A stretch of DNA of 64,000 nt from positions 39,370,001 through 39,434,000 of the forward strand of contig CM114271.1 of assembly GCA_050084515.1 (NCBI GenBank), in the 5' to 3' direction. Within the stretch, counting starts at the first letter, position 1. Each line of letters begins with the position of its first letter. The position numbers and the translations under genes are program-made. Below, in pieces: positions 15,390-64,000 of the stretch. Under the pieces are notes generated by a model. The model was not told the DNA's origin. It ran no database searches and saw nothing but the letters and a program-made list of their open reading frames with translations. Source of the DNA: Blasia pusilla (taxonomy: Eukaryota).

Positions 15390-15562
15390 GAGGCAGGCGT
15401 GGAGGTTCAAAAGATCAAGCACGTCGTATTGAGGAAGCGGAAGAAGATCGAATAACGAATAAGGCGCCGGTGTCGAACAATTGGAGTAGTAAAGAGGATA
15501 GCGTTTTGCTGGCCGATTGATTCATAGGCCCAGAGTGGCAAGGATGAACGAATAATGAAATA

Positions 15563-16888
15563 ATGAGTGGCTCAGGTTCAGGTGGCAGCGATGAGTTCGG
15601 CAGGGCGGTCGCCAAAATTGGGGTGGCGCAATTGTGTGAATCCATTGGTTTCCATGGTTGGCAGCGATCCGCTGGCGAAACTCTGGCTGATATTGCACTC
15701 CGTTACCTCACGGATCTTGCCAAAGCTGCACACTTTTACGCCAACCTCGCCGGCCGTACTCAGTGCAATGCGCTCGATGTAATTATGGCAATGGACGATG
15801 TAGGCATTGGGTCGTCCGCTACGGAAACGTCTCGTGCACTTTCCAGCTCCAGAAGCCTACAAGATGTGATGCGGTATGTAGAGTACAGTGAAGAGATCCC
15901 TTTTGCAAGGCCATTGCCTCATTTCCCCGTTTTGAAGAAGAGGGCTGCCCCGCCAAGTTTTGCCCAACTAGGAGAGACTCCTCCTTTTCCCCACATTCCT
16001 GCGTGGTTACCCGCATTTCCGGACCCTCACACTTACAAGTCCACTCCTGTCTGGGATGAGAGGAAAAGTGATCCGCGAATGGACAAGCTGGAACTTGCGA
16101 GACAGCGACGGAAGGCCGAACGATCTTTAGTTTCGTTGCACTTGCGATTATCATCTAGTGGAGTAGCAATGAAGCCACCTATCGCACCCGTTGCCCACCC
16201 GGACCCCCAATCATCTGGCGGACCAGCCATGCCTCTGCTTGCACTAGCAGCAGGTCGTTCTAACAGCGGACCATTACCGTCTGTTGCCCCAAGTCGTCCT
16301 CCGACATCTCCTTCCGTGGCGTCCCGGCAGCAGTGGCCTCCTTCCAGTGAACAGGAAGTTATTCTTTCTAAGCTTGAATCAGAGGGACAAGCTGGTAAAG
16401 GCAAAGGGAAGCGTGTGGCAGCAGGGCAAAATCCATTCTTGACCTCTCCTTTCCCTGCCGGAGAGAAAGACGTCTCATCCATTACTTTCCCCGGCAAAGT
16501 AGTAGACTCTAACTCGCGTCAGCGAGAGGCAGAGGGAAAGGTAGAGTTGCCATCGGTTTTCGAGGCCTTCGCCCCAGCATTGGAAGCAGCATCGAAACAT
16601 GGCCTGGATCACATCGAAACTGGGCTGGGGTCGTCAAGTGTTCTTTTGGAAGCTAAAGATCGTCGGCCAATTCTACTTAGTTTCGATTGGAGTCGAAAGA
16701 CGCGAGTTAAGGCATTGGCTGCACAGCTGAGTGTAGGGGCCTTCAATCAACCCCCCCTCAAGGATAAGGTCAAGGTAGCAGTTCAGGGCAAAGATGAGGA
16801 GAAAGACGACCGGAAAAAGAGAGCCGAGCAGATTCTTGCGCAGGCTATGGAAGTGATGGAGGGAGCTGATGATGCCACCCAAGCTTAG
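15563..16888 (+). CDS. TAF8: Transcription initiation factor TFIID subunit 8 (441 aa, intronless CDS)
   Basis: N-terminal histone-fold/bromodomain-associated domain (DEFGRAVAKIGVAQLCES.GF...ANLAGRT.CN..D) and TAF8_C motif HIPAWLPAFPDPHTY..TP...ARQRRKAERSLVSL. Confidence 0.95.
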   Translation: MSGSGSGGSDEFGRAVAKIGVAQLCESIGFHGWQRSAGETLADIALRYLTDLAKAAHFYANLAGRTQCNALDVIMAMDDVGIGSSATETSRALSSSRSLQDVMRYVEYSEEIPFARPLPHFPVLKKRAAPPSFAQLGETPPFPHIPAWLPAFPDPHTYKSTPVWDERKSDPRMDKLELARQRRKAERSLVSLHLRLSSSGVAMKPPIAPVAHPDPQSSGGPAMPLLALAAGRSNSGPLPSVAPSRPPTSPSVASRQQWPPSSEQEVILSKLESEGQAGKGKGKRVAAGQNPFLTSPFPAGEKDVSSITFPGKVVDSNSRQREAEGKVELPSVFEAFAPALEAASKHGLDHIETGLGSSSVLLEAKDRRPILLSFDWSRKTRVKALAAQLSVGAFNQPPLKDKVKVAVQGKDEEKDDRKKRAEQILAQAMEVMEGADDATQA

Positions 16889-35131: not shown

Positions 35132-35745
35132 GTCTGACCTCGAAGATATGCGGAGCCTGCCATCGGCGTCGGGGCGCCGGTGGTTGGTATGCTGCTGAGG
35201 AAATTCCTTAGGTCAGTGAGCGAGGGATTGCGCTGGGAACTGGTGGTGTGGGAGTTGGCGGAATATACTTCGAGGGAGGCGGGGATGGTTCAGGGAGTCG
35301 TGTTTGCGGGTGATATTGCATAGGAGAGGGAGCGGCGACGGGATGCTAAAAGGAGGGTGATAGGATTGGATTGATCGTCCGCAGGTAGGCGTGCTCTGCC
35401 GGTGTTCTTTGGCGTCTGAATTGGTGGTGAAAGAGGAGAACGGGGAACGCTTGGACTTCTCTGCGGGAGTTCCCTTCATGTGCGTGCCTTCATTGACAAG
35501 ATTCACCTATTCTTCACATCCGACCGAGAGGTCACCTGCCGTTGCGAGCTTGCGTTTGCGGAGCCTGTGTAAGTGGGTATGCACATGAAACTGTTCCAGA
35601 CTTCGAGACGCGTGCTGCTTACATATCGGCGATTGTGAATTTCATTTATCGGTTCTTCAAGTTTCATTCCAAATCACCGGATCACCTTCCTGCGTCAAAA
35701 CGACCAGCGTAAAATATTTGAAGCGAGACGTCTTTTAGGTCCAAT

Positions 35746-37353
35746 ATGGTGGGATCATCCGTTGCGAGGCTACCGGGAGTTATGGCCGCGGCCGCGGCGC
35801 TTGCTACCGCCGCCACGACAGCAGACTTCCCTCAAATGCTGAATTCGAAAGGATCTACCATGCTGTTTTACTCTGCCCATTCTACCGTCATTTCTGCTAC
35901 CTCGTCGACTTTCGCGACGCCCTCAGACATGTCCTATCCTTCTCTACCTCTAGCTCAAGGAGCTGGTTCGATCATCAAGCCACCATCAGTTTTTCATCCT
36001 AGTCACAAGGTCCTCTCGCATTTGCTTCCACTCAGTTTGTCCTCAAGTGTAACCTCATCGGCCCATGTGTTCTGTACTCAGTTGAATGGATCTGCTAGTC
36101 TGAGCAACTCCTCTACCCTTCGACCTTGTCTAGCCTGCCCTCCCTACTTATACCGATCACCACGAGACCATCTGCACCGGTTCTTCCAGAGCCAAGCTAT
36201 AAATTCCTTGCCTTTTTCCTCCTCCATTGCATCTTCAGCGCAGCACTTACCAACCTCCTTGTCATCCAATCAGAGTTCTCCATACATTTTTTGTCGGTCA
36301 TCCTCAATGCCCGATTCCGATCTTTCCTCACATCTGGCAACTTTTTTCTCCGCTTTCGCTTCTCCAGCGTCTCCTGCGCATCCAACCGCAAGCTCGTGGA
36401 ATTCTATGCACACCTGGCACACGCCCAAGCCCGGGTTTTCTGACCCTCGAGAGGTGAAGGGAGGGAGCGGAACGTCTCCCACCGACAAGCCAGCGCTGAC
36501 AGTCGTTCTTTTGGGATGGCTAGGCTCTCAGCAAAAGCATTTGAGGAAGTATGCTGAATGGTACAATGCACGTGGAATTCACGCAGTGACATTCACCGTG
36601 CCTATGGCTGACCTCCTCAGTATAACACTGGGTGGTAAGGCAGAGGCTCATGTTGATGAACTGACTGATCGACTTGCTATGTGGCTGGAGGAGGATTGCA
36701 AAGTAAACAGGAGTGTAGAGAAGCATTTGATATTCCATACTTTCAGCAATACTGGATGGCTCACTTACGGTGTCGTTCTCGAAAAGTTACTGGCAGGGCG
36801 GAAAGATTTAGTAGAGAAAATCAAGGGTTGTGTAGTAGATTCCGCACCTTCTCCAGAACCCGATCCTCAAGTTTGGGCTTCGGGATTCTCCGCAGCCTTA
36901 TTGAAGAAGAGGAGTATCGCGGCCAAAGGGCTTGTCCAAGATTTGGCAAGCCCCGATGCGACCGAATTAGTTCATGAGAAAGTGCAGCCTCATGTTGCCG
37001 AAGCAGCTTTGCTGGCCATGTTAGAGAAGTTCTTCACATTTTTTTTACAGATCCCGGCCATCAACCAGCGGTTGGCGCAGGTGGTGAACGTGTTGTCCAA
37101 GCAACAACCGCCTTGTCCGCAGCTTTACATTTACAGCACTGCTGACAAGGTGATTCCGGCGAAACAAGTAGAGTCTTTCATAGAAAAGCAGAGGCAAACA
37201 GGGCGCGTTGTTAGGGCTTGCAACCTTCATTCTTCTCCACATGTAGATCACTTTAGGAGTTTTCCTGAAATTTATGGCAAGCAGGTCAGCAATTTCCTCG
37301 AGGAGTGTTCACCTAAATCGTCACGCGACAGAATGGAAGGCGCTTGTCCATGA
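35746..37353 (+). CDS. TMEM53: TMEM53/DUF829 family alpha/beta-hydrolase-like protein (535 aa) with a Ser-rich N-terminal extension
   Basis: Motifs VVLLGWLG..KHL.KY..WY, FHTFSNTG, VVDSAP, QLYIYSTAD.VIP, SPHVDH. A candidate 5'-UTR intron acceptor (TTTTAG, 35738) lies just before the ATG. Confidence 0.92.
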   Translation: MVGSSVARLPGVMAAAAALATAATTADFPQMLNSKGSTMLFYSAHSTVISATSSTFATPSDMSYPSLPLAQGAGSIIKPPSVFHPSHKVLSHLLPLSLSSSVTSSAHVFCTQLNGSASLSNSSTLRPCLACPPYLYRSPRDHLHRFFQSQAINSLPFSSSIASSAQHLPTSLSSNQSSPYIFCRSSSMPDSDLSSHLATFFSAFASPASPAHPTASSWNSMHTWHTPKPGFSDPREVKGGSGTSPTDKPALTVVLLGWLGSQQKHLRKYAEWYNARGIHAVTFTVPMADLLSITLGGKAEAHVDELTDRLAMWLEEDCKVNRSVEKHLIFHTFSNTGWLTYGVVLEKLLAGRKDLVEKIKGCVVDSAPSPEPDPQVWASGFSAALLKKRSIAAKGLVQDLASPDATELVHEKVQPHVAEAALLAMLEKFFTFFLQIPAINQRLAQVVNVLSKQQPPCPQLYIYSTADKVIPAKQVESFIEKQRQTGRVVRACNLHSSPHVDHFRSFPEIYGKQVSNFLEECSPKSSRDRMEGACP

Positions 37354-39060: not shown

Positions 39061-41936
39061 TCAGTGAACAAGTCCCGCGGATCCTGTCAGTGGCAAACTC
39101 ACCAACTCTCCTGACGCACCGCCGCTTGTGCTGTCCAACCTACGAATCCGCTGTATGAGCCCACCATCCACCACTCTCTGCACCTGCTGGAGAGTCGGAC
39201 CAACCAAATGGTTGTAAGATACAGGTTTGGGGAGCGCGAAAACTACTCGATTGATTTCGTTTTCGAGTTCGATTTCGTAAACTTCTGCGAACACACCTTT
39301 CAGGGAGGTGATTACGCCCTCATAGGCCTTCTCCACACAAGATACCACATTCATGGCTAACATGCCACCGTCCTGTAGAGCAATCCTCGCCGATAGGATA
39401 AACTTCCGCTCAATGAAAGCCATAGGAGGAGAGCTGAGCTCGAACCGGGGATCACCCACATCCACGTCCACAACTATGATCTCCACCCGGGGATCCTTAT
39501 CAAATCGACAGTTGTAAGGGAAGTGCGCCACATTCGCATCTCGAGATGCGACTTCCACTGTCGAGTGAACGTCGGTCTGTGTGGATTTGATTTGCTCAGA
39601 GGAGCTTGAGACAGCAACGTCCTCCGACACGATCTTGTCTTTCACAGCTGCATTTTCAGGACCGATCGCGTGCTCGTTTTCAGAGAGCTCGATGACACCC
39701 ACTCCCTGGGGATCTTCACACCAGTCATTCACTCTGACCTCATGCTCTGTTGAAGAGTTCTCCACGTTCGTGGAAGATACCACATTCGTGGGAGGTGGAT
39801 CCACCTGGTCACTAGCAGAATCTCCTGGAGAGAGATCAGCTGACGGCAGAGGTGGGCAATTCTCATTGTTACTGACACAATGCCTCCACTTCTCTTCCCA
39901 CTCATGATTCACAAGGCCCACCTGTATCGCCTTTGAAGCAATGTCTTCTACGAAATGCGCACCATCGCCGACTGCCACTTGAACATGCGGGTCTTCTTTC
40001 AGGCAGAAGTGCTTCTCAGCTAATCGAAGCACCACCTCATCCAATTCCACTACCTGCGGGGAGTCAATTCCTGGCGAGGTTAGTGTTTCCGCAAGTGGCA
40101 TCCATTGAGTCAGAATTCTGCAGAACAAGCGATTCCTGTCCCTACGGCGGAGCACACATTTGGGATTGATGGCAAGTCCGGCTGGAGAAGCCGCATAGCT
40201 TTCATGAATCACCATAGCTAGAATACCTGAATCTGGAACCAGAACTGGTTGTGGAGGAACATCGGCAGAGCTCCTCCACCCACGCCAATGCAGAGAACTC
40301 TGGCTCTAAGTTGGGACATGAAACATGCGTCCAAGCAAGGGGTGACCAGCACAAATCCAGCAACAATCGGAGGTAAATAAATGTGCACTAGCTTGCTGTG
40401 ATCCACCCGCTTCACGACGGCTTCTCCTTTTGCTCTCCTATGGCTTCTTCTAGAACCGTGCTTCTTTTGCCTCTTCCTATCCTGGTCTACGTCACGGCCG
40501 GAGCGAATTCTGAGCGGAACCTCTGTCTGGATCAGATTCGGCATCCTTTTAAAAATTAATCTACGTCTCCACGATTTGCTGCGTTCGCGTCCCATCATGA
40601 GACACGATGAGGGGACAAGTTGCGATGATCCCTCTTCTCTCGACGACCATTGCTGATAGTTTTTCGGGACGAAGGCTTTCTCGTCCGACTCTTTTTCGGA
40701 TTCCACTTCCACATCCTCTACCATCATCATGCCAGTCAAGGGAGAGTAGACTACGTCTATCACCACCCGCTGCACGACATTGTCCGTGTACGTCACAAAG
40801 GGAATGTCAGGGCCTCCGCGTTTGAAAGAAATTTTCGGGGCGAGAGCAAGAATCAGAGGCCGAAGAATTTTCTTCAGTTCTGAATCATTTTCCTCAGCGT
40901 TCTCGGCAACGACCACTAGACAGCTCCGACGAGCCTTCAACAACTCTACCTCAACCTCTTCCATTTTACTCTTCTCCGGCCCGACAGGGTCTTCTATGCT
41001 GCGAGAATCATCCAAGTTCCGCTCCTTGTCTTGAGCATTTCTGTGTTCTCCATCATTGTCCTCTCTATGACTCGAGCATTGCCGCACCTCCCCACTACCA
41101 TGTTCAACTTCCGCACTCCCACCAGTAGCTTTGTCCAGCGCCGGATGCTCTTCTATACTGATTCTCCCGTTTTTCCTGTCACAAATTCCCCGCCCTTCTG
41201 CGTTGGCTCCATCCGTCTTCGGGAATTCCCTCCCAGACCTAGAAGACGCACCATCGTCATTTCGGGGTTCCGCGAGCTCGGGGTCACAAGTCCTTAGCAA
41301 GAGTATCAACCTCCTCACACCAGCGGAAGCTAGCAGCTGCCACTGTCCGCCTTCCGAAGAGTATATCCAGGCTTCTTCCTTCCCCAGTGGCACCAGCATA
41401 GCTGCACACTGCATCAAATCCTCGTCTTCCACCATCGGAGAATCGAGCACCACTGCAGTTACACTCCTGCGCACAGAGACAGAGGAAGAGGCGGCGCGGG
41501 TAATGGGATAATCAAAAACAATACGCCTTCCCGCATGGATCTCCTCAAAGTCGTCATTGATCAATCCCGCGGCATCAATCTCCTCGTCTTCTTCTGCTTC
41601 CTCCTCCTCCTCCTCCTCCTCCGCAGCATGACGATCCTTCGCACCCGTGCTCCCACCGCCCTCCGCTGCACAGACGTGCCCGGATCCCAGAGTTGGAGAA
41701 ATGAAATCCTCCTGTGAAGACTCGTGCACGGGAGCTTCACGAAACTCCTTCAACCTATCCCCGTCCACGAAAATCTCCTCAAATCTTGTGCCGGTCCTCT
41801 CCGGCCCAAATTCAATGTCATGCGCATACGCTTCTTCTTCCTCACTGACGCACAGTGGGGCCGAAGTTGTACCGCCTCCACCGTCGTGCATCTGAGCATA
41901 ACCTCTCCCCATCGGATGATCGGTCTCTTCTCCCAT
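39061..41936 (-). CDS. SAM-dependent methyltransferase similar to the C-terminal (eEF1A N-terminal MTase, spermidine synthase-like) domain of METTL13; 2 exons, about 900 aa
   Basis: Exons 41936-40227 and 40053-39061; 173-nt GT-AG intron with a CTAAC branch site. The splice joins VLCIGVGGGALPMFL...IQ to VVELDEVV..A.KHF. Other motifs: CAAMLVP.G.E..W.YS.EGG.WQL, RRRL.FKRMPNLIQTE, VDVD..D......PP..F. Confidence 0.88.
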
Positions 41937-44512
41937 TCCCTCCTTTCTTTCTTACTCGATCACTCCCTGCCTGTCACGCGCAACGACTCGCAGCAGAAGG
42001 AGGATCATTTTGACGAGCTCCGTCGCCAATCGACGAGTCAGAACGAAACGGCAAGCGGCAACAGAAATTCCCAGTCGAAGGCTGGAAATCAGCCATCGCG
42101 CATGTAGATTTCAACCAATCTCGGCCTGCGGAATGGGGAAACCAATCCTGGACTCCTGCTGTGATACTCAGCGGAGACGTTTACTGTCTGGAATGGAAAT
42201 GAGGAGAGTCCAACATGCACGCGAGAGGAACGAGGGTTGGCATACAGCTAGCTCAACAGGACGGCTTCTGCGCTTGGACACCCCTGGTATGTGCGAATTG
42301 CGCAGGATAGGGTAGAAACGAGATTTGGTAACCTCCACAGATCATCCAGTGCAGGAGCGGGGCATGTCGAAAGTCAAAAAAGCCGCAAGCCGATTTGATT
42401 TCTGCAACCATGGTTGCAGGAACACTGCACTGCAGTCCCTCCCTGATTAGCGCTGGCAAACACTCCACGAGCACACGGAGAGGACAAAAGACAAAAGACG
42501 GATGAGATGTCTGGAACTCCCGATGTTCCAAGCGCTTCCGACCACAGAGATCGACCAATCCGGGAGCGAGAAGAGGCCAACAACGTAACCCGCATTTCCC
42601 GTGTGAAAGAGAGCAATCACCTTACTTTTCCAGTCTTTCACATACGAAGACATAATCCGAAAGCTGAAGACGAGAAGGAGACCCAAGGTCCCACAAATCG
42701 CCACTTCCAACAAATGAAGAAACAATCCGTTAAGGTGTAGGCAAGACAAGAAGGGAACAAGGCAGTAATCACCTCAGATCCAATTACATCTCCCCACCTC
42801 ACGTCTGAAAAGATAAGCACAATCCCGTCAGAAGAAAGTGGTGCTCACTGCAAATTCAAGCTCCACGTCCCCCTACCTCACGAAAGCCTCGCCTGCATCC
42901 ACATTGGATTAAAGTGCACGGTATAAAACCAAGTGGGCCTCGTAGTGACTCACGAGAATATCCCTCACCTTGTGAAATGAAATAATATAAAGACGCTACA
43001 CAAGAATGGGCCAGTTGGAATAGCCGATTTAGAAACTTATATTTCAATAATTGGGAGTCGTGAATAATTATCTAGTCTGTTTCGACTTAGTGCCTCTGAT
43101 CTTGACATTGAAAATCTGATTTAGAAGTGAGAGGAAAACGTGTTTCTTCGATACGTGCGTTGGTGTGTGGCCAGTTGACAGTGGCAACCGTAAAGCGTCC
43201 GACTCTTAGTTATCTAAATTTGTTTTGCTTCTGAATATAGTGGGAAGAGAAAAGTTTTATGAAAGTAATGAAAATCTAAAATTAGTCTTGCAAGTTCCTA
43301 TCGTAAAGTATTACTCTTGACAAGCTTTTGTTCAATCTTATTTTGATGATATTTCTTAGTTATTTTTTTTCTATAATAAAACTGTATCATGACTTATTCT
43401 GTTATCTTGAGAACAAGCAGACAACCTCGACTCATTCATGCCTAAACATGATCAACGTGCCTCACAATGATTCACATCTCCCAACCAACCTGTGCTTAGA
43501 AATACCCCTAGGCTCTCTCGTATTGTATCCAAGTATTAAAGAATCTTGGCAATTCTAGTAATCGATTTCCTTGCCATCTACCTGCGGTCAAAATCTACTC
43601 CATGTCTTCTCACTTGGGACAGAAACGCTTCTATCCACTCGTAACTAACAAACTCCCTTCAACAAACTTTGCATGCCCACAGCGAGCCCGTGCCCACTGT
43701 ACAAACTTAGATTGTTGGTATTCTCCATTTTAACACATCAGGGTTGGTCTCCAGCGGTCCAGGATTGAACCAAAGCATATCTTAGCAACACAAAACGAAG
43801 GTTGAGTGTCCTAGGGAGACTACTTTCGCTTTACAGAAAAAACGGACCAAGGCTGGAAATGGCTTGTAGATTTCTGACAGCAAGGTATTTTTGCGCTTCG
43901 TGCAGAAATATCTTGCAGCCTGGACCTGCAGCCAGGCTGGAACACTTCTTTTGGTACAATTTCGCTTCTCTGTAAATCCTTATTGGAAGCTTAAGAGGTT
44001 TTAGACACAGCATCTGAAACCTTAGAAGCAGAAAAGATGAAACAAACAGAAGAAATGGAGCACTTTCTCTTCACTGGTTAAAAATTTATGATCGAACCTT
44101 TCACCTTTGCTCCACTGCTACCCATTTCCCAAAAGATGTTCAGATAATATCGGATTCCAAAAACTTCACAGTACCCCTGAGCTCCTTGAATGGCGGCAGT
44201 AACCAACATCGACAACAGACAAGACACCGCTTCACAAGGTGTTCGAAGTCCTTAGAAGAAACCTTAGACAAATTTGAAGATTCGACTGGCTTTCTAGAAT
44301 TGATGGTTGCATATACATAAATTACAGTCCCGGACTAATTTAATTCCAATACAATGATAACAGTCTAGTCTGCTCAAACAACCCAAAATCAGGGAGGAAT
44401 ACCTTTGTAGAGAAATGTACTGACAAATTTAGGGAATGACAAGTGCTTGTAAGCACATGATATGAAAGAAAGCCCTAAAATTGTCTCAAGAAGTTCTAAG
44501 ACACCCTGCACA

Positions 44513-56508: not shown

Positions 56509-59500
56509 TTATGGTCTCAACATCCTCCTTCGCTCCGGACGCACATTGTCTTGAAGATACTTCTTCAATAATGACACATGGAAAGTCGGGTGAATCTTGA
56601 ACTCGTTTGGCAGCTCCAACATGTACACATCCTCAAACGGCCTTGCCTTGATCACATACGGTCCAGCATACTTGGCTGACAATTTCGCAGACAATTCTTT
56701 CGGAAGAGTGAGATTCTTAACACTCAACCACACTTGTTCCCCAACTTGGAAACTCACATGGCGCCGACTTTTGTTAGCATGCTTTACGTACCTTAGTTGA
56801 GCCTTGGTGAGACTTTCTCTCGCTCGCTCTTGTCGTTCCTGCATTTCCACTAACAAACATTCCGCCGTTGCTTGACGAGTGTGTGTCGATGTATTGCCCT
56901 TCGAAAGAGCTAAGTCAAGAGGCCCTTCTGGTTCTCTTTGATACGCCAGAAGAAACGGAGATTCTCCGGTTGTAGAATGCTTAGTCGAGTTGTAACAATA
57001 CTCAGCCATACTTAACCACTTGGCCCAATCTCTTTGGTCCGCACTCACGTAATTCCGTACGTATTGGTTTACGACCGAGTTTACTTTTTCCGTTTGCCCA
57101 TCCGTTTGAGGATGGAAGGCCGTACTAAAGCTGAGTTTGGTCCGGAACCTCCTGAATAGATGTTTCCAAAAGGCACTGGTAAACTTCGGATCCCGATCGG
57201 ACACAATGCTCCTAGGCAATCCGTGCGCACGCCACCAACCATCCAGGAATAGTCGGGAAGTCGTGTAGGCCGTCGCAGACTCTCTTGTCGGCACAAACCT
57301 CCCCAACTTGCTAAACCGATCAACTATCACAAGTATAGCGTTGTATCCCTCAGATTCTGGAAGACTCGTAATGAAATCCATGCTAATGCTTTGCAAGGGT
57401 CCCTCCGGGATTGGCAAAGGATGAAGTAAACCTTGTTTCTTCGCATAAGACACGCGGTTCGCCTGGCAGGTCACGCATGTTTTCACATATTGAGCAACAT
57501 CTTCCTTCATGTTGGGCCAGAAGAACCTCTTAGACAAAACAGCAAGAGTGGATTTCTCCCCTTTGTGTCCCGCCAAAGGTCCATCATGACATTCCACAAA
57601 CACCTTGGTCCGTAGCTTGCCTTGGCCTACATAGATCTGCTCGCTTAAACCTTAGCAAGCCGTGTCTCAAACTCAGATTGGCCACCTTCTCGCCCGCTTT
57701 AACTTCCCAAGGTACTCCTCGCTTGCTCATCCTTCATGTATCCTTCACTTAATCCTTCTTTCCGGTCTGTTTCATTAGGGAACATTGCTCTCAACACTTG
57801 TGTCATCGATGGCATGTGTTCATCCTGCGACTTAACGATCCTGGAATGACATTGTCTTTCCCGGCTTGTGGATTAGCTCCAATTCATCAACGCCAAGGTA
57901 TTATGCCACCGAAGTTTTTTTGGCGTCACGCGATCTTGGGTCTCAAAATACTTGAGCGATATGTTATCGGTGAATACTCGAGTCCTGTGAAGTCCCAAAT
58001 AGTGACGCCACTTCCTCAAGCAATGAACCACCGCAAACAACTCTTTCTCATGAGTAGGCCATCTCCTTTCGGTGTCGGTCAACTTCTTGCTTTTGTATGC
58101 TACATGTCTCCCTTTTTGCACCAACATTCCTGCAATCGCGAAATCACTAGCATCCGTGTGCACCTCGAACGGTTGTTCAAACTCCGGCAGTTTCAGAACT
58201 GGTTCCTGTGAGAGGATCTCTTTGACTCGATTGAACGCTTTATCCACTTCCTCGGTCCATGTAGTATTGGCAAACTTTGCGGTCCAATCCGTGAGAGGTT
58301 TCACTATGCCCGAAAAATTCTTCACGTATGTCCGTAAATCGATAGCTCGATGAACCTTCTCATCCCTTCACCGTGGAAGGCGGTTCCCATTCGCAATCGC
58401 GCTCACCTTTTCCATGTCGGACTCACTCCATCCGCACAAACCACATGTCCCAAGAACTTGATCTTCGTCAAACCGAACTCACTCTTATCCGCATTCGCAT
58501 ACTGACTTGTTAGCCCTAAGTTTCTCAAACACCGTCTTCAAATGTCGAGCGTGCTCCTCTAGTGTTTTCGAATAGATGAGTATGTCATCTATATAGATGA
58601 TCACAAACTCATCCGTCTCCTTGTGAAAGATGGAGTTCATCAAAGTGGTAAACGTCGGAGGCGCATTACAAAGACCGAAAGGCATTACTACAAACTCGAA
58701 CGAACAGTATCTCGCCCTACTGAGCGGTCTTCTCTACATCCGCCGGCAATCCGAATCTGATAATATCCTGATTTCAGGTCAATCCGGCTGAAATACTTGG
58801 CACCCGACAATCGATCAAAGAGGTCATCCATCCTCTTTGAGGTAGAGGATATTTATTCCTTACCGTCACTTTATTCAGCGCCCGATAATCAACATGAGTC
58901 TCAACTTCCCATCCTTCTTCTTGACAAAGAGGACGGGCGCCCCATAAGGTGACTTGCTCGTTCGGATGTAACCCCTCTCTAGGAGTTCACCCAACTGTTT
59001 CTTCAACTCAGCAAGTTCCTCTTGATTCAACCTATATGGTGCCTTTGAAGGTGGTTGAGATCCTGGTATCACCTCAATCTTATGATCAACCGCCCTATGT
59101 GGTGGCAACTCAGTCGGAAGCTCCTTAGTCAACACATCTTCAAATTCTTTCACAACTCTCTTGAGTGTTTCAGGATCTCCTTGAAGCTGAGTTCTGATCT
59201 CTGCATCTTGCGCTTGCATCATCCTCTACTCGTCTCATCAAGCAAAGGAATCCTTCCTCTAACTCGCCAAACTCGTCCTCGTGATGGCGTTCACCAACTC
59301 CGTCTTTCTAGGCACCTCACGAACCAATCGGCGTCCGTCCGTTTGCCGTTAACCAAGACGCTTAACCTCAAAGGTCTCCGCCTCGGTTCCACCTCATACG
59401 CATCAGAACGTGTTCCCAAGACTCCGTCGATACCGTCCATCTCGCAAACTGTAAAATTCTCCTTCAACTCAAATACTCCGCATCTCACAACTAGCCCTAA

Positions 59501-61994: not shown

Positions 61995-63000
61995 AGTTAT
62001 CTTATTATTTTTGGAGAGTGCCTTAGATTTTGCAAAATTGTTCTCACCACACTCATAATTTCAGGCAATAGGATCACTTGTCTTCTAAGCCATACGATTG
62101 TTTGAAATTGAATTTAAATGGTACTTGAAAATTAATTACGAGAGGTAACTCAAAATCATGCATTCTATGATTTTCCATTAGCATCATATATTATTGGGGA
62201 TTTATGGAACGATGTTCATCTTTTTTCCCGGGAGGGTAGTAAACAACACCTATTTCCAGATAGCTCTTTATTAACTTATATCTCGCCACATCTATGTTGT
62301 TATTGCAAAATGCATCTTTGATTTTCAACCCTTTTCAAAATCATTTGGCATTTTTAGCTAAATGGGTCTTGGCGTGTGTACATAGATAATTCAAAGTCAC
62401 TTTTAGGGTGAAGCAAGTTCAGGGTTGATTAGGAGCAGTGGAGATTGATTTGGTTGCCGTTGCGACCCATTTGGGGTTTGTTAGGAGGTCAATTAAAATA
62501 ATGGTGTGTAACTAAAATAACTCATCATTAGTCCTCTTGCACGGGTACTTACTGATCCTTGTTGAATAATTCAAGTTTCAACATGGCTGGCATCCTCTTC
62601 AGTTATTCAGGTTTCAATGTCACTCTCCTTACCCATCCCTCTATATGAACCCACTTAACCTGACTAGAAGTAATTTTTGAGGAAGTAGTGCCAGGGCAGC
62701 TAAAAATCTGCATCCTCCAATTAATATATAGATAAGCGCTTTTGAACAGAACTTTATTTCTCATTTAAACATACCAAAATGAGGGATTTGGTACAAAGTG
62801 TGCTTAAAGCGCACGTCCACCATAAAACTCTTTTCTTGAATTCTAAGGTGTAATTCAGTCATTAAGTTTAATAGAAGTTGCGCTACTCCAATCCTACCTT
62901 TCATACCTACTCAAAAGCTTTGACTTTCATATTGACCTCACAGCATGAGAAATAATTCAAGAGAAGTCTTGGCCAGATGCTACTGGATCAGATCAATCTT

Positions 63001-64000
63001 TTAGTCCCCAGCTTTGGAAGGGTGTGGAACTGAGAGCAATTGATAAGGTAAGACATTGTCAAGAGTGACAGAGGAACCATCTGGCCAGGTGACCTCCACT
63101 TCCAACTCCTGTTTCATTTGACCTAACCCAAAGTGTGCAACAGGCTGACATACAATACCAGATTTACAAGTCAGTAACCATTCTTGTCTGCATTTCTTCC
63201 AGAACTCTAGGTAGGACCTATAATACCACTTGAGCTAGTCAGCAAATTAAACGACACTTTTCTTCAACATCCTATAACTCCTGCAGCTCAATCACCTGAG
63301 GTTGATTGAGTTGCATCCAACTTCTACTTAGATCTTTGAGATGGACAACCATGAGTCATCAGAAAAGACATGAGTCACTGACCTCCATTTGGCACAAGTA
63401 GCCACTGCGACCAAAACAACGTCCCCACAGGCAGAGCCACAGAGAGACACAACTTAGTATTTGTACTGCATCCAGAAGACCAATTATGATAGACTTTGAC
63501 ATTCTCCGTCTTTAAAGTAATCTTCCAAAGTGCCAACCCCAGATGGTTGTAGACTACCACAGTACTCTTGCATACAGTAGTTAGCTTTATAATTACTACT
63601 AGTCATAATGGCCCGATTAAACATTCCAGCTCGCTCAGTTCCAATATAGCCTTTCCAATCCAATGCACAATCTTACTATCAAGTTCACAGGCAAGCATTT
63701 CAAGAATGCTAAACTGACTTCATATACTCACCTCCCAGCATCAATAGCACGCTTTTGTGTTCGGCCTGCAGCATCCAGGATCTTCACAACCGCTCCTCTT
63801 GCTGGTGCACCCTGATTTACCGGTTTGAAGCTAGTGAGGAAGAATGCAAAAAAAACAAAACTTCACCTGATGCTAAAAAACGTGCAGAATATGGGAATCA
63901 GACCTGCTTTGTCAAGGGCTTCACACGCAGCCACGCATTGTCGTTCTTGGGAGATGTGAACAGAGAGAGGGGCTGAGGCCTTAGTTCTCCGTGAGCACTG
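63001..64000 (-). CDS. CRTAC1: CRTAC1 (cartilage acidic protein 1)-like protein, C-terminal ASPIC/UnbV domain; 5' part lies outside the window
   Basis: Exons about 63997-63904, 63811-63732, 63404-63383 and 63144-63001 (all GT-AG, phases compatible) give AHGELRPQPLSLFTSPKNDNAWLRVKPLTKQ|GAPARGAVVKILDAAGRTQKRAIDAGS|GYLCQME|PVAHFGLGQMKQELEVEVTWPDGSSVTLDNVLPYQLLSVPHPSKAGD*. Confidence 0.9.

What the first reader, a model, noticed from the sequence alone, without database searches (positions are those of the whole stretch)
63001..64000. Hidden CRTAC1-like (ASPIC/UnbV) gene in a plant genome
Seen: four short minus-strand exons, none translated in the ORF track, splice in frame to HGE..QPLSLF...N.WLRV.P.T..GAPARGA.V...R.IDAGSGYLCQMEPVAHFGLG...VEVTWPDG and then stop. 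Known: this is the signature of CRTAC1, an FG-GAP beta-propeller plus ASPIC/UnbV calcium-binding protein described from vertebrates and bacteria including cyanobacteria; vertebrate forms add an EGF domain, which is absent here. I do not know this family from flowering plants. Inference: an intron-bearing, open-frame and therefore domesticated copy with prokaryote-like architecture, possibly from endosymbiotic or horizontal transfer and lost in seed plants; its plant function is unknown to me.
Basis: partly seen in the sequence, partly recalled or inferred. Interest (0 to 1): 0.82.

Follow-up and report, generated by a model that had tools for sequence, protein, structure and literature searches.

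The report
Expressed plant CRTAC1-family gene tail
The window's last kilobase holds the final four exons of a real, transcribed and correctly spliced bryophyte gene of the CRTAC1 (calcium-binding propeller plus ASPIC/UnbV) family, but the family is already named in mosses and ferns, so this is an ordinary orthologue, not a hidden novelty.

Summary
Four minus-strand exons (63997-63904, 63811-63732, 63404-63383, 63144-63001) join through three GT..AG introns into an open 112-residue C-terminus. The last exon alone passes Pfam's UnbV_ASPIC threshold. Stranded RNA-seq from two runs and contigs from two more support every junction.

The gene is not hidden or new to plants. Its nearest relatives are annotated streptophyte proteins: Physcomitrium patens 'cartilage acidic protein 2' (ABC86200.1/A1XF86), plus Sphagnum, Ceratopteris, Adiantum, Pteridium, Calypogeia and Klebsormidium. 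In a tree these and the window form one clade (SH-aLRT 100).

The clade is nested among roughly 453-residue bacterial proteins without a signal peptide, from Chloroflexota and cyanobacteria, at 51-61% identity. A cyanobacterial sister position is neither shown nor rejected (p-AU 0.53). No seed plant appeared among the best 120 of 4175 hits.

A bacterial origin and loss in seed plants are therefore plausible but unproven, because no animal or other eukaryote could be placed in the tree. The function is unknown.

Earlier notes of this scan describe bacterial CRTAC1-like genes only, none in plants. Interest is low to moderate.

The parts
63998..64000 (-). Last three bases (CAG) of a further upstream intron; the rest of the gene lies beyond the window
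   Evidence: Sequence. Loose ends at 63997 in 49 reads (X9), 44 reads (X10) and one contig each of X1 and X2 run on into unlike sequence.
63904..63997 (-). Exon A (94 nt): end of the last FG-GAP blade and the linker to the UnbV_ASPIC domain
   Evidence: The upstream exon seen in the loose-end consensus encodes a DGDGRLE-type calcium-blade motif (my own reading of the 30-nt consensus).
63812..63903 (-). Intron, 92 nt, GT..AG
   Evidence: Joint 63810/63903 (cut +1): 34+3 reads in X9, 47+0 in X10, one contig each in X1 and X2. Splice sites.
63732..63811 (-). Exon B (80 nt): start of the UnbV_ASPIC domain (GAPARG...IDAG)
63405..63731 (-). Intron, 327 nt, GT..AG, partly retained in RNA
   Evidence: Joint 63404/63732: 40+3 reads in X9, 37+1 in X10. 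Intron depth is 7-33 against 59-78 in the flanking exons B and D.
63383..63404 (-). Exon C (22 nt micro-exon): the GYLCQME core
63145..63382 (-). Intron, 238 nt, GT..AG, partly retained in RNA
   Evidence: Joint 63144/63383: 37+1 reads in X9, 38+1 in X10.
63001..63144 (-). Exon D coding part (47 codons plus TAA at 63003-63001): C-terminal half of UnbV_ASPIC
   Evidence: Pfam PF07593 E 3.2e-8, profile positions 31-67 of 68. The best PDB match is mouse CRTAC1, 9ETN_A, E 9.7e-4.
62700..63000 (-). 3' untranslated region (about 120-300 nt); its end is not sharply defined
   Evidence: RNA depth falls from about 45-77 at 62938-63004 to 1-3 at 62670-62736. The contigs of X1 and X2 end at 62880.

Best explanation
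This is the 3' end of an ordinary, expressed nuclear gene of a bryophyte (most like liverworts). It encodes the streptophyte member of the CRTAC1 family: a calcium-blade FG-GAP beta-propeller followed by a C-terminal UnbV_ASPIC domain, with no EGF domain. It is the orthologue of Physcomitrium patens 'cartilage acidic protein 2'. Shown: the exon structure, splicing, transcription from the minus strand, domain identity, retention of all family-invariant residues, and membership of a single streptophyte clade that includes Klebsormidium, mosses, a leafy liverwort and ferns. The gene was therefore already present before land plants arose. Inferred (about 0.6): the streptophyte gene descends from a roughly 453-aa bacterial protein without a signal peptide, of the type found in cyanobacteria and Chloroflexota, gained by endosymbiotic or other horizontal transfer, and it was later lost in seed plants. 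Inferred (about 0.35): the plant protein works inside the cell, probably in an organelle. Moss and fern orthologues carry a 55-85-residue serine/threonine- and arginine/lysine-rich N-terminal extension with few acidic residues in three of the five, in front of the bacterial-type core. There it would act as a calcium-stabilised propeller that binds, or acts on, a conserved small ligand or partner. The very high conservation (51-61% identity between plant and bacterium, with many invariant His, Cys, Asp and Arg residues) fits a binding pocket or catalytic site better than a loose adhesion scaffold. The confidence given (0.85) is for the identity and expression part; the origin and the mechanism carry the lower odds stated here.
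For: Exons, GT..AG introns and an open 112-aa frame. UnbV_ASPIC hit above Pfam's cut-off from one exon. Three junctions in 2 of 2 raw RNA-seq runs and 2 of 2 contig runs. First mates lie on the plus strand at roughly 20-130 times the minus-strand depth over exon D, which means a minus-strand RNA in the usual stranded library. The X2 contig of 1975 nt extends 1514 nt beyond the window, enough for a full-length coding sequence. 49 of 49 invariant columns are kept. The best matches to the fragment are Calypogeia fissa 74% and 72%, Klebsormidium 73%, Physcomitrium 67% and ferns 64-66%. Names and accessions of plant orthologues come; their Pfam architecture is FG-GAP_3 + FG-GAP + UnbV_ASPIC and nothing else. 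The moss orthologue aligns with mouse CRTAC1 (9ETN) over residues 70-527, E 1.2e-103. In the tree, 10 of 10 streptophyte rows including the window form one clade with SH-aLRT 100; mosses (97) and ferns (99) are each together. For the bacterial relatives, 144 stretches encode a relative and the best 80 were kept, at 50-58% identity to the fern protein over residues 1-478. Of those, 78 of 80 gave a whole ORF: 62 Chloroflexota, 12 Cyanobacteriota, 4 others. The five I looked at start directly with the conserved core. The moss protein scores 391-570 bits against these (median 516), but 351 bits against mouse CRTAC1. N-terminal extensions of 55-85 residues occur in 5 full-length moss and fern models, with 1-2 acidic residues in three of them and 8-9 in the other two. 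Streptophyte orthologues carry 3-4 Dx[DN]x[DN]G motifs. The plant host is shown by neighbouring plant genes and a Ty3/gypsy integrase in the same window.
Against: The propeller exons and the N-terminus lie outside the window and no whole genome is held. The full-length frame, start codon and any targeting peptide of this particular gene were therefore not seen. No localisation predictor was available, so the transit-peptide reading rests on composition only. Some models (Ceratopteris 486 aa, two unnamed) start at the core without any extension, and the Klebsormidium extension contains a hydrophobic stretch. The tree holds no animal, fungal, chlorophyte or red-algal sequence, and its backbone support is 80-88. 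Pairwise scores would look the same if bacteria simply evolve slowly and both eukaryote lines evolve fast. Mouse CRTAC1 scores 436 bits against a Microcoleus protein, more than against the moss protein. 'Absent from seed plants' rests on the best 120 of 4175 hits from a word-indexed search. Bacterial gene neighbourhoods gave no functional hint. Function is untested anywhere outside vertebrates.
Confidence: 0.85

Rival explanations
1. The gene was inherited vertically from an early eukaryotic ancestor shared with animals. The closeness to bacteria only reflects slow evolution of the bacterial proteins, or transfer from eukaryotes to bacteria.
For: The moss protein aligns collinearly with mouse CRTAC1 over about 458 residues, E 1.2e-103. 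The streptophyte stem branch is long (0.46) and the backbone around it is weak, so long-branch effects are possible. An unnamed group of 596-658-aa proteins, at least one (P0188) with a signal-peptide-like N-terminus and possibly eukaryotic, lies near the streptophytes.
Against: The moss protein scores higher against 78 of 78 bacterial proteins (391-570 bits) than against mouse (351 bits). Mouse scores higher against a cyanobacterium (436 bits) than against moss. Plant proteins share the bacterial length and lack the EGF domain. No other eukaryote was named among the best 120 hits.
Confidence: 0.25
2. The plant protein is secreted and acts in the cell wall or apoplast as a calcium-binding matrix protein, in the way vertebrate CRTAC1 acts in the extracellular matrix.
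For: Vertebrate CRTAC1 is a secreted matrix protein (abstracts of PMC10477339 and PMC8536980, seen in the listings). The Klebsormidium model has a hydrophobic stretch in its N-terminal extension. Calcium-blade propellers are common outside cells (passages of PMC3123361).
Against: The moss and fern N-termini look like transit peptides rather than signal peptides: no hydrophobic core, rich in Ser/Thr and Arg/Lys, with 1-2 acidic residues in three of the five models. The five closest bacterial relatives I looked at start directly with the conserved core and have no signal peptide.
Confidence: 0.15
3. It is a transcribed pseudogene or a decaying remnant.
For: Only the last 112 codons can be read here. 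Two introns are partly retained in RNA, at depth 7-33 against 59-78 in the flanking exons B and D.
Against: The frame is open across four exons. 49 of 49 invariant family positions are kept. All seven read-versus-window differences lie outside the coding sequence. Splicing is efficient, and a 1975-nt contig is long enough for a full coding sequence.
Confidence: 0.03
4. It is bacterial contamination or a misassembly in a plant genome.
For: Bacterial proteins are 66-68% identical to the fragment.
Against: There are three spliceosomal GT..AG introns confirmed by RNA-seq. The gene is placed inside the streptophyte clade. It lies on the same 64-kb stretch as plant TAF8-like and TMEM53-like genes and a Ty3/gypsy integrase.
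Confidence: 0.01

Closest known systems
Physcomitrium patens 'cartilage acidic protein 2' (ABC86200.1 / UniProt A1XF86; RefSeq XP_024403189.1 'cartilage acidic protein 1-like'; A0A2K1J0J6 'ASPIC/UnbV domain-containing protein')
   Same: Same clade in the tree. 67% identical over the 107 alignable C-terminal residues. Same Pfam architecture, ending right after UnbV_ASPIC.
   Different: It comes from a moss, not a liverwort-like plant. The full length (534 aa, with a 58-residue N-terminal extension) is known for the moss protein and not for the window's gene. No functional study was found in the open literature searched.
Calypogeia fissa (leafy liverwort) CAM6101199.1 / CAM6102529.1
   Same: The highest identity to the window's fragment: 72% and 74% over 108 residues. 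Same clade.
   Different: The deposited models are 1379 and 1381 aa, with a pentatricopeptide-repeat protein joined in front. This is probably two genes merged by the annotation; I did not test it.
Bacterial 'CRTAC1 family protein' of about 453 aa (cyanobacteria such as Thermostichus/Synechococcus, Microcoleus, Leptolyngbya, Gloeobacteraceae; Chloroflexota such as Anaerolineae, Roseiflexus)
   Same: Collinear over the whole core, 51-61% identical to the moss protein and 50-58% to the fern protein. Same three Pfam families and no EGF.
   Different: No introns and no N-terminal extension. No conserved gene neighbour: the commonest family is an alpha/beta hydrolase, in 9 of 75 upstream and 4-5 of 74 downstream neighbours. 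Function unknown.
Vertebrate CRTAC1 (mouse structure PDB 9ETN)
   Same: Homologous over the propeller and UnbV_ASPIC parts: moss protein against 9ETN_A E 1.2e-103, residues 70-527 against 21-492. Shared calcium-blade motifs (passages of PMC3123361).
   Different: The plant gene stops at the end of UnbV_ASPIC. The score is lower than between plant and bacteria (351 against 391-570 bits).

Membership tests
CRTAC1 family in the broad sense (FG-GAP propeller + UnbV_ASPIC) | C-terminal UnbV_ASPIC domain (Pfam PF07593) | tested here: met
   Exon D alone: E 3.2e-8, 33.8 bits against a cut-off of 23.4, profile positions 31-67 of 68. Exons B and C supply the first half by alignment with orthologues.
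CRTAC1 family in the broad sense (FG-GAP propeller + UnbV_ASPIC) | FG-GAP/VCBS beta-propeller repeats N-terminal to UnbV_ASPIC | tested here: inconclusive
   These exons lie beyond base 64000 and no genome is held. Indirect evidence: the loose-end consensus at 63997 (49 and 44 reads) encodes a DGDGRLE-type blade motif, and RNA contigs continue 677 nt (X1) and 1514 nt (X2) upstream. All orthologues have the repeats.
CRTAC1 family in the broad sense (FG-GAP propeller + UnbV_ASPIC) | Calcium-blade Dx[DN]xDG motifs | tested here: inconclusive
   There are 0 motifs in the 112 residues inside the window, as expected from their position. Streptophyte orthologues have 3-4, and 78 bacterial relatives have a median of 5.
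CRTAC1 family in the broad sense (FG-GAP propeller + UnbV_ASPIC) | Collinear sequence homology to a solved CRTAC1 (9ETN) | tested here: met
   Window exon D: the best PDB hit is 9ETN_A, E 9.7e-4 over 28 residues. Moss orthologue: E 1.2e-103 over about 458 residues.
Vertebrate CRTAC1 in the strict sense | EGF-like domain after UnbV_ASPIC, and a secretory signal peptide | tested here: not met
   The TAA stop follows UnbV_ASPIC directly. No EGF family was found in the 2 streptophyte orthologues scanned, Physcomitrium and Klebsormidium, nor in the 4 bacterial or unnamed relatives of the same scan. The N-terminus of this gene was not seen; the orthologues' N-termini are not signal-peptide-like.
Streptophyte CRTAC clade (Klebsormidium, mosses, liverwort, ferns) | Groups with these proteins to the exclusion of bacterial relatives | tested here: met
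   10 of 10 streptophyte rows including the window form one branch, SH-aLRT 100, in a 68-row, 463-column tree. The window row fills only 24% of the columns.
Streptophyte CRTAC clade (Klebsormidium, mosses, liverwort, ferns) | Spliceosomal introns and expression as a nuclear gene | tested here: met
   Three GT..AG introns plus a fourth acceptor at the window's edge. Junction reads in X9 and X10 and contigs in X1 and X2.

The most novel reading that the evidence does not exclude
The streptophyte CRTAC gene is a relic of the cyanobacterial endosymbiont. On this reading, a soluble cyanobacterial calcium-propeller protein moved to the nucleus, gained a plastid transit peptide, was kept in charophyte algae, bryophytes and ferns, and was lost in seed plants (and perhaps in Marchantiopsida and lycophytes). 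That would make mosses and liverworts the first genetically tractable systems in which to find the ancestral, intracellular job of the whole CRTAC1 family, including the form from which the animal matrix protein arose.
Probability: 0.25. Interest if true: 0.5.

Novelty: new member of a known kind. Interest (0 to 1): 0.25.

Why it matters
As found, it matters little. It is one more orthologue of a gene family that databases already name in mosses, ferns and Klebsormidium, and it looked hidden only because introns break it up in a prokaryote-style ORF view.

The surrounding facts are mildly interesting. The family is 51-61% identical between plants and bacteria. In plants it carries a transit-peptide-like extension instead of the animal signal peptide. 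It was not seen in seed plants. I found no open paper on its plant function. A knock-out in a moss or liverwort could therefore give the first non-vertebrate functional handle on CRTAC1-family proteins.

Tried and rejected
- Whole-genome search of the window's own assembly: none is held, so the upstream exons could not be fetched.
- First Pfam call: it failed on a frame slip of mine and was corrected.
- Homologue search with exon D alone, 'longer' lengths: 15 candidates, none at E <= 0.001. This was a limit of the word index for a 47-aa query, not an absence; one search found 4175.
- Run index: no RNA holder was listed. The raw runs that were laid nevertheless gave the junction evidence.
- HMMER scan of 1.84 billion representatives with exon D: 47 hits, mostly multi-domain bacterial proteins. 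The ten looked up carried no plant name.
- Alignment A1 with a bacterial scaffold misplaced exons A and B and was dropped. A2 was used instead.
- Bacterial gene neighbourhoods: no conserved partner. The best family was in 9 of 75 upstream and 5 of 74 downstream neighbours. The cytochrome/TPR partners that earlier scan notes describe for other bacterial CRTAC1-like proteins are not a feature of this subfamily; TPR families were in 3 of 75.
- Literature: ten full-text searches found no open paper on a plant CRTAC or ASPIC/UnbV protein. 'cartilage acidic protein' + 'land plants' gave 0 papers, and 'cartilage acidic' + 'patens' gave 0 papers. One search was badly designed (min_terms 2) and is uninformative.
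- Redruello et al. 2010 (Gene 456:1, pmid 20171266) was seen only in reference lists and is not held. Whether it treats the moss sequence I cannot say.
- The HGT gene lists of PMC12513842 are in supplements, which are closed. Its main text has none of FG-GAP, ASPIC, UnbV, CRTAC or cartilage.
- Atlas look-up of an unrelated long ORF gave only sub-threshold scores.
- Pseudogene and contamination readings were rejected; see the rival explanations.

Full report
**What is in the sequence**

Read on the minus strand, the last kilobase of the window contains four short coding pieces:
- 63997-63904
- 63811-63732
- 63404-63383
- 63144-63001, ending in TAA

The three pieces of DNA between them are 92, 327 and 238 nt long, and each begins with GT and ends with AG. 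Bases 63998-64000 are the CAG end of yet another intron. Joined inside a script, the pieces give one open frame of 112 residues that ends at a single stop. The only correction is that the first exon starts three bases inside the window's end.

**Is it more than chance, and is it used?**

The domain and conservation evidence is strong:
- The last exon alone (47 residues) matches Pfam UnbV_ASPIC at E 3.2e-8, 33.8 bits against a curated cut-off of 23.4.
- Its best match among all solved structures is mouse cartilage acidic protein 1, 9ETN.
- The joined fragment keeps 49 of 49 positions that are invariant among nine relatives.

Public sequencing runs of the same species label were laid on 62000-64000.
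- In two raw stranded RNA-seq runs, each of the three junctions is crossed by 34-47 first-mate-plus reads: X9 37, 40, 34 and X10 38, 37, 47.
- Contigs of two further runs carry the same three junctions.
- First mates lie almost only on the plus strand. In the usual stranded library that means the RNA comes from the minus strand.
- Reads and contigs run on past 63997 into an upstream exon: 49 and 44 reads, one contig each. The start of that exon reads as a DGDGRLE-type calcium-blade motif.
- One contig (X2) is 1975 nt long and extends 1514 nt beyond the window. That is enough for a full-length coding sequence.
- The two longer introns are partly retained, at depth 7-33 against 59-78 in the flanking exons B and D.
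- Seven small differences between the reads and the window all lie in introns or the 3' UTR.

The gene is real, spliced and expressed.

**Whose genome**

No whole genome is held for this window. The window also carries:
- an intronless TAF8-like ORF,
- a DUF829/TMEM53-like ORF,
- a Ty3/gypsy integrase.

The TMEM53-like protein is closest to liverwort proteins: Marchantia paleacea 60% identity at 97% coverage, Riccia fluitans 54%, Calypogeia fissa 59%. Mosses come next. The host is a land plant, most like a liverwort but not close to Marchantia. I did not try to identify it further.

**Relatives**

A search with the 47-residue exon alone failed. A scan of 1.84 billion representatives gave mainly bacterial multi-domain proteins.

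I then built a profile in which the exon translations were tiled as separate rows beside a 71-residue fragment that proved to be from Sphagnum (alignment A2). It found 4175 proteins at E <= 0.001. The top of the list is streptophyte:
- Sphagnum balticum
- Ceratopteris richardii
- Physcomitrium patens
- Adiantum nelumboides
- Calypogeia fissa
- Klebsormidium nitens
- a EukProt transcript that names as Pteridium aquilinum

The database names settle the novelty question:
- 'cartilage acidic protein 2 [Physcomitrium patens]' (ABC86200.1, UniProt A1XF86)
- RefSeq 'cartilage acidic protein 1-like' (XP_024403189.1)
- 'ASPIC/UnbV domain-containing protein' for Physcomitrium, Ceratopteris and Klebsormidium

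The window's fragment is 72-74% identical to the two Calypogeia proteins, 73% to Klebsormidium, 67% to Physcomitrium and 64-66% to ferns. No protein that I fetched is identical to it. I therefore cannot say whether this particular gene is annotated in its source record.

The two plant orthologues scanned (Physcomitrium and Klebsormidium) have FG-GAP_3, FG-GAP and UnbV_ASPIC and nothing else, so there is no EGF domain. The plant orthologues listed above have 3-4 Dx[DN]x[DN]G calcium motifs. The moss protein aligns with mouse CRTAC1 over about 458 residues at E 1.2e-103.

**Bacterial side and the tree**

A scan of one genome per prokaryotic species found 144 stretches that encode a relative, and the best 80 were kept. 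They are 50-58% identical to the fern protein over essentially its whole length.
- 78 of the 80 gave a whole ORF: 62 Chloroflexota, 12 Cyanobacteriota, and one each of Armatimonadota, Bacillota, Bacteroidota and an unnamed bacterium.
- 70 of the 78 are 440-469 residues long, and the five I looked at start directly with the conserved core, so they have no signal peptide.

I built a quick IQ-TREE tree of 68 rows and 463 columns. I left out 41 of the 62 Chloroflexota loci (every third was kept) and the partial or broken plant models P0174, P0178 and P0201. The results:
- All ten streptophyte rows, the window included, fall on one branch with SH-aLRT 100.
- Mosses (97) and ferns (99) are each together.
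- Klebsormidium, Calypogeia, the window and one unnamed row are unresolved at the base.
- The clade is nested among bacterial sequences, but on a weak backbone (80-88).
- It is not specifically next to the cyanobacteria, which are themselves split.

Forcing streptophytes and cyanobacteria into one clade gave a likelihood 1.68 units higher than the free search, with p-AU 0.533. A cyanobacterial sister position is therefore neither shown nor rejected.

Pairwise scores are as follows:

| Comparison | Score (bits) |
|---|---|
| Moss protein vs 78 bacterial proteins | 391-570 (median 516) |
| Moss protein vs mouse CRTAC1 | 351 |
| Mouse CRTAC1 vs a Microcoleus protein | 436 |

Each eukaryotic line is thus closer to bacteria than to the other. 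This fits separate acquisitions from bacteria. It equally fits slowly evolving bacterial proteins and two fast eukaryotic branches. I had no way to bring animal or other eukaryotic sequences into the tree, so the origin stays open.

**Distribution**

Among the best 120 hits, the only named eukaryotes are the mosses, ferns, leafy liverwort and Klebsormidium listed above. The same collection holds many seed plants, Marchantia, Riccia, Selaginella and Diphasiastrum, and none of them appears. Streptophyte orthologues scored 104-156 bits, above the bacteria, so a seed-plant orthologue should have been listed. Loss in seed plants is therefore likely but not proven, because the search is word-indexed and only the top 120 are shown.

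**How it probably works**

Nothing is known experimentally outside vertebrates. The ten literature searches found no open paper on a plant member. The one paper whose title links cyanobacteria and man, Redruello et al. 2010, is not held.

From the anatomy, the protein is a calcium-blade propeller capped by the UnbV_ASPIC domain. The window encodes the end of the last blade and the whole cap.

Two observations shape my reading.
- First, five full-length moss and fern models carry a 55-85-residue N-terminal extension in front of the bacterial-type core. It is rich in Ser/Thr and Arg/Lys, and three of the five have only 1-2 acidic residues. Several start MAASL... or MALSS.... This looks like an organellar transit peptide, not a signal peptide. 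No predictor was available, and some models lack the extension.
- Second, conservation is extreme for a plant-bacterium pair, with many invariant charged, His and Cys residues. That suggests a defined binding or catalytic site.

My best guess, at about one in three, is an intracellular, probably organellar, calcium-stabilised propeller that acts on a conserved ligand. The alternative is a wall or apoplast protein working like animal CRTAC1. Bacterial gene neighbourhoods gave no help: the commonest neighbour family, an alpha/beta hydrolase, is present in only 9 of 75 upstream and 4-5 of 74 downstream neighbours.

**Verdict**

The family assignment and the absence of an EGF domain are right. The idea of a bacterial origin with loss in seed plants is reasonable but untested. 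The claim that the family is hidden or unknown in plants is wrong, because it has been named in a moss for years and is annotated in ferns and Klebsormidium.

This is a new member of a known kind, of low to moderate interest. Earlier notes of this scan concern bacterial CRTAC1-like genes in other genomes only; none concerns plants.

Noticed in passing
window 15548-16885 (+): A single uninterrupted 446-codon ORF with Bromo_TP and TAF8_C domains (a TFIID subunit 8-like protein), apparently intronless.
   Followed up: partly
window 35722-37350 (+): A single 543-codon ORF with a DUF829/TMEM53 domain at residues 260-526 and about 250 N-terminal residues that match no Pfam family. The best relatives are liverwort proteins, at only 54-60% identity.
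   Followed up: partly
window 39061-41951 (-): Two long, slightly overlapping minus-strand ORFs (414 and 577 codons) in a GC-rich stretch. Neither has a Pfam family at E <= 0.001. The Atlas look-up of the longer one gave only sub-threshold scores (0.82). They may be one gene split by a frameshift or an intron.
   Followed up: partly
window 56512-57651 (-): A Ty3/gypsy-type integrase ORF (Integrase_H2C2, rve, SH3_Tf2-1), so a retrotransposon lies about 5 kb downstream of the CRTAC-like gene.
   Followed up: no
window 63145-63382 and 63405-63731: The two longer introns keep RNA depth of 7-33 against 59-78 in the flanking exons B and D, and short intronic contigs exist in X1 and X2. The 92-nt intron is almost fully removed (depth 2.4-2.9). 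This points to partial intron retention or abundant pre-mRNA.
   Followed up: no
window 62701-63627: The RNA reads differ from the window at four single bases (62706, 62849, 63455, 63627) and three small indels (62701, 62757, 62823). All lie in the 3' UTR or in an intron. The runs probably come from another individual or strain of the same species label.
   Followed up: no
proteins P0179 and P0307 (Calypogeia fissa): The deposited liverwort models (1379 and 1381 aa) join a pentatricopeptide-repeat protein to the CRTAC-like protein. This is probably two neighbouring genes merged by the annotation.
   Followed up: no
proteins P0188, P0215, P0257, P0277, P0281: A tight group of unnamed 596-658-aa relatives from metagenome or run assemblies lies near the streptophytes in the tree. 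P0188 has a signal-peptide-like N-terminus, and in the two scanned about 150 C-terminal residues match no Pfam family. Their organism is unknown; they might be eukaryotic.
   Followed up: partly
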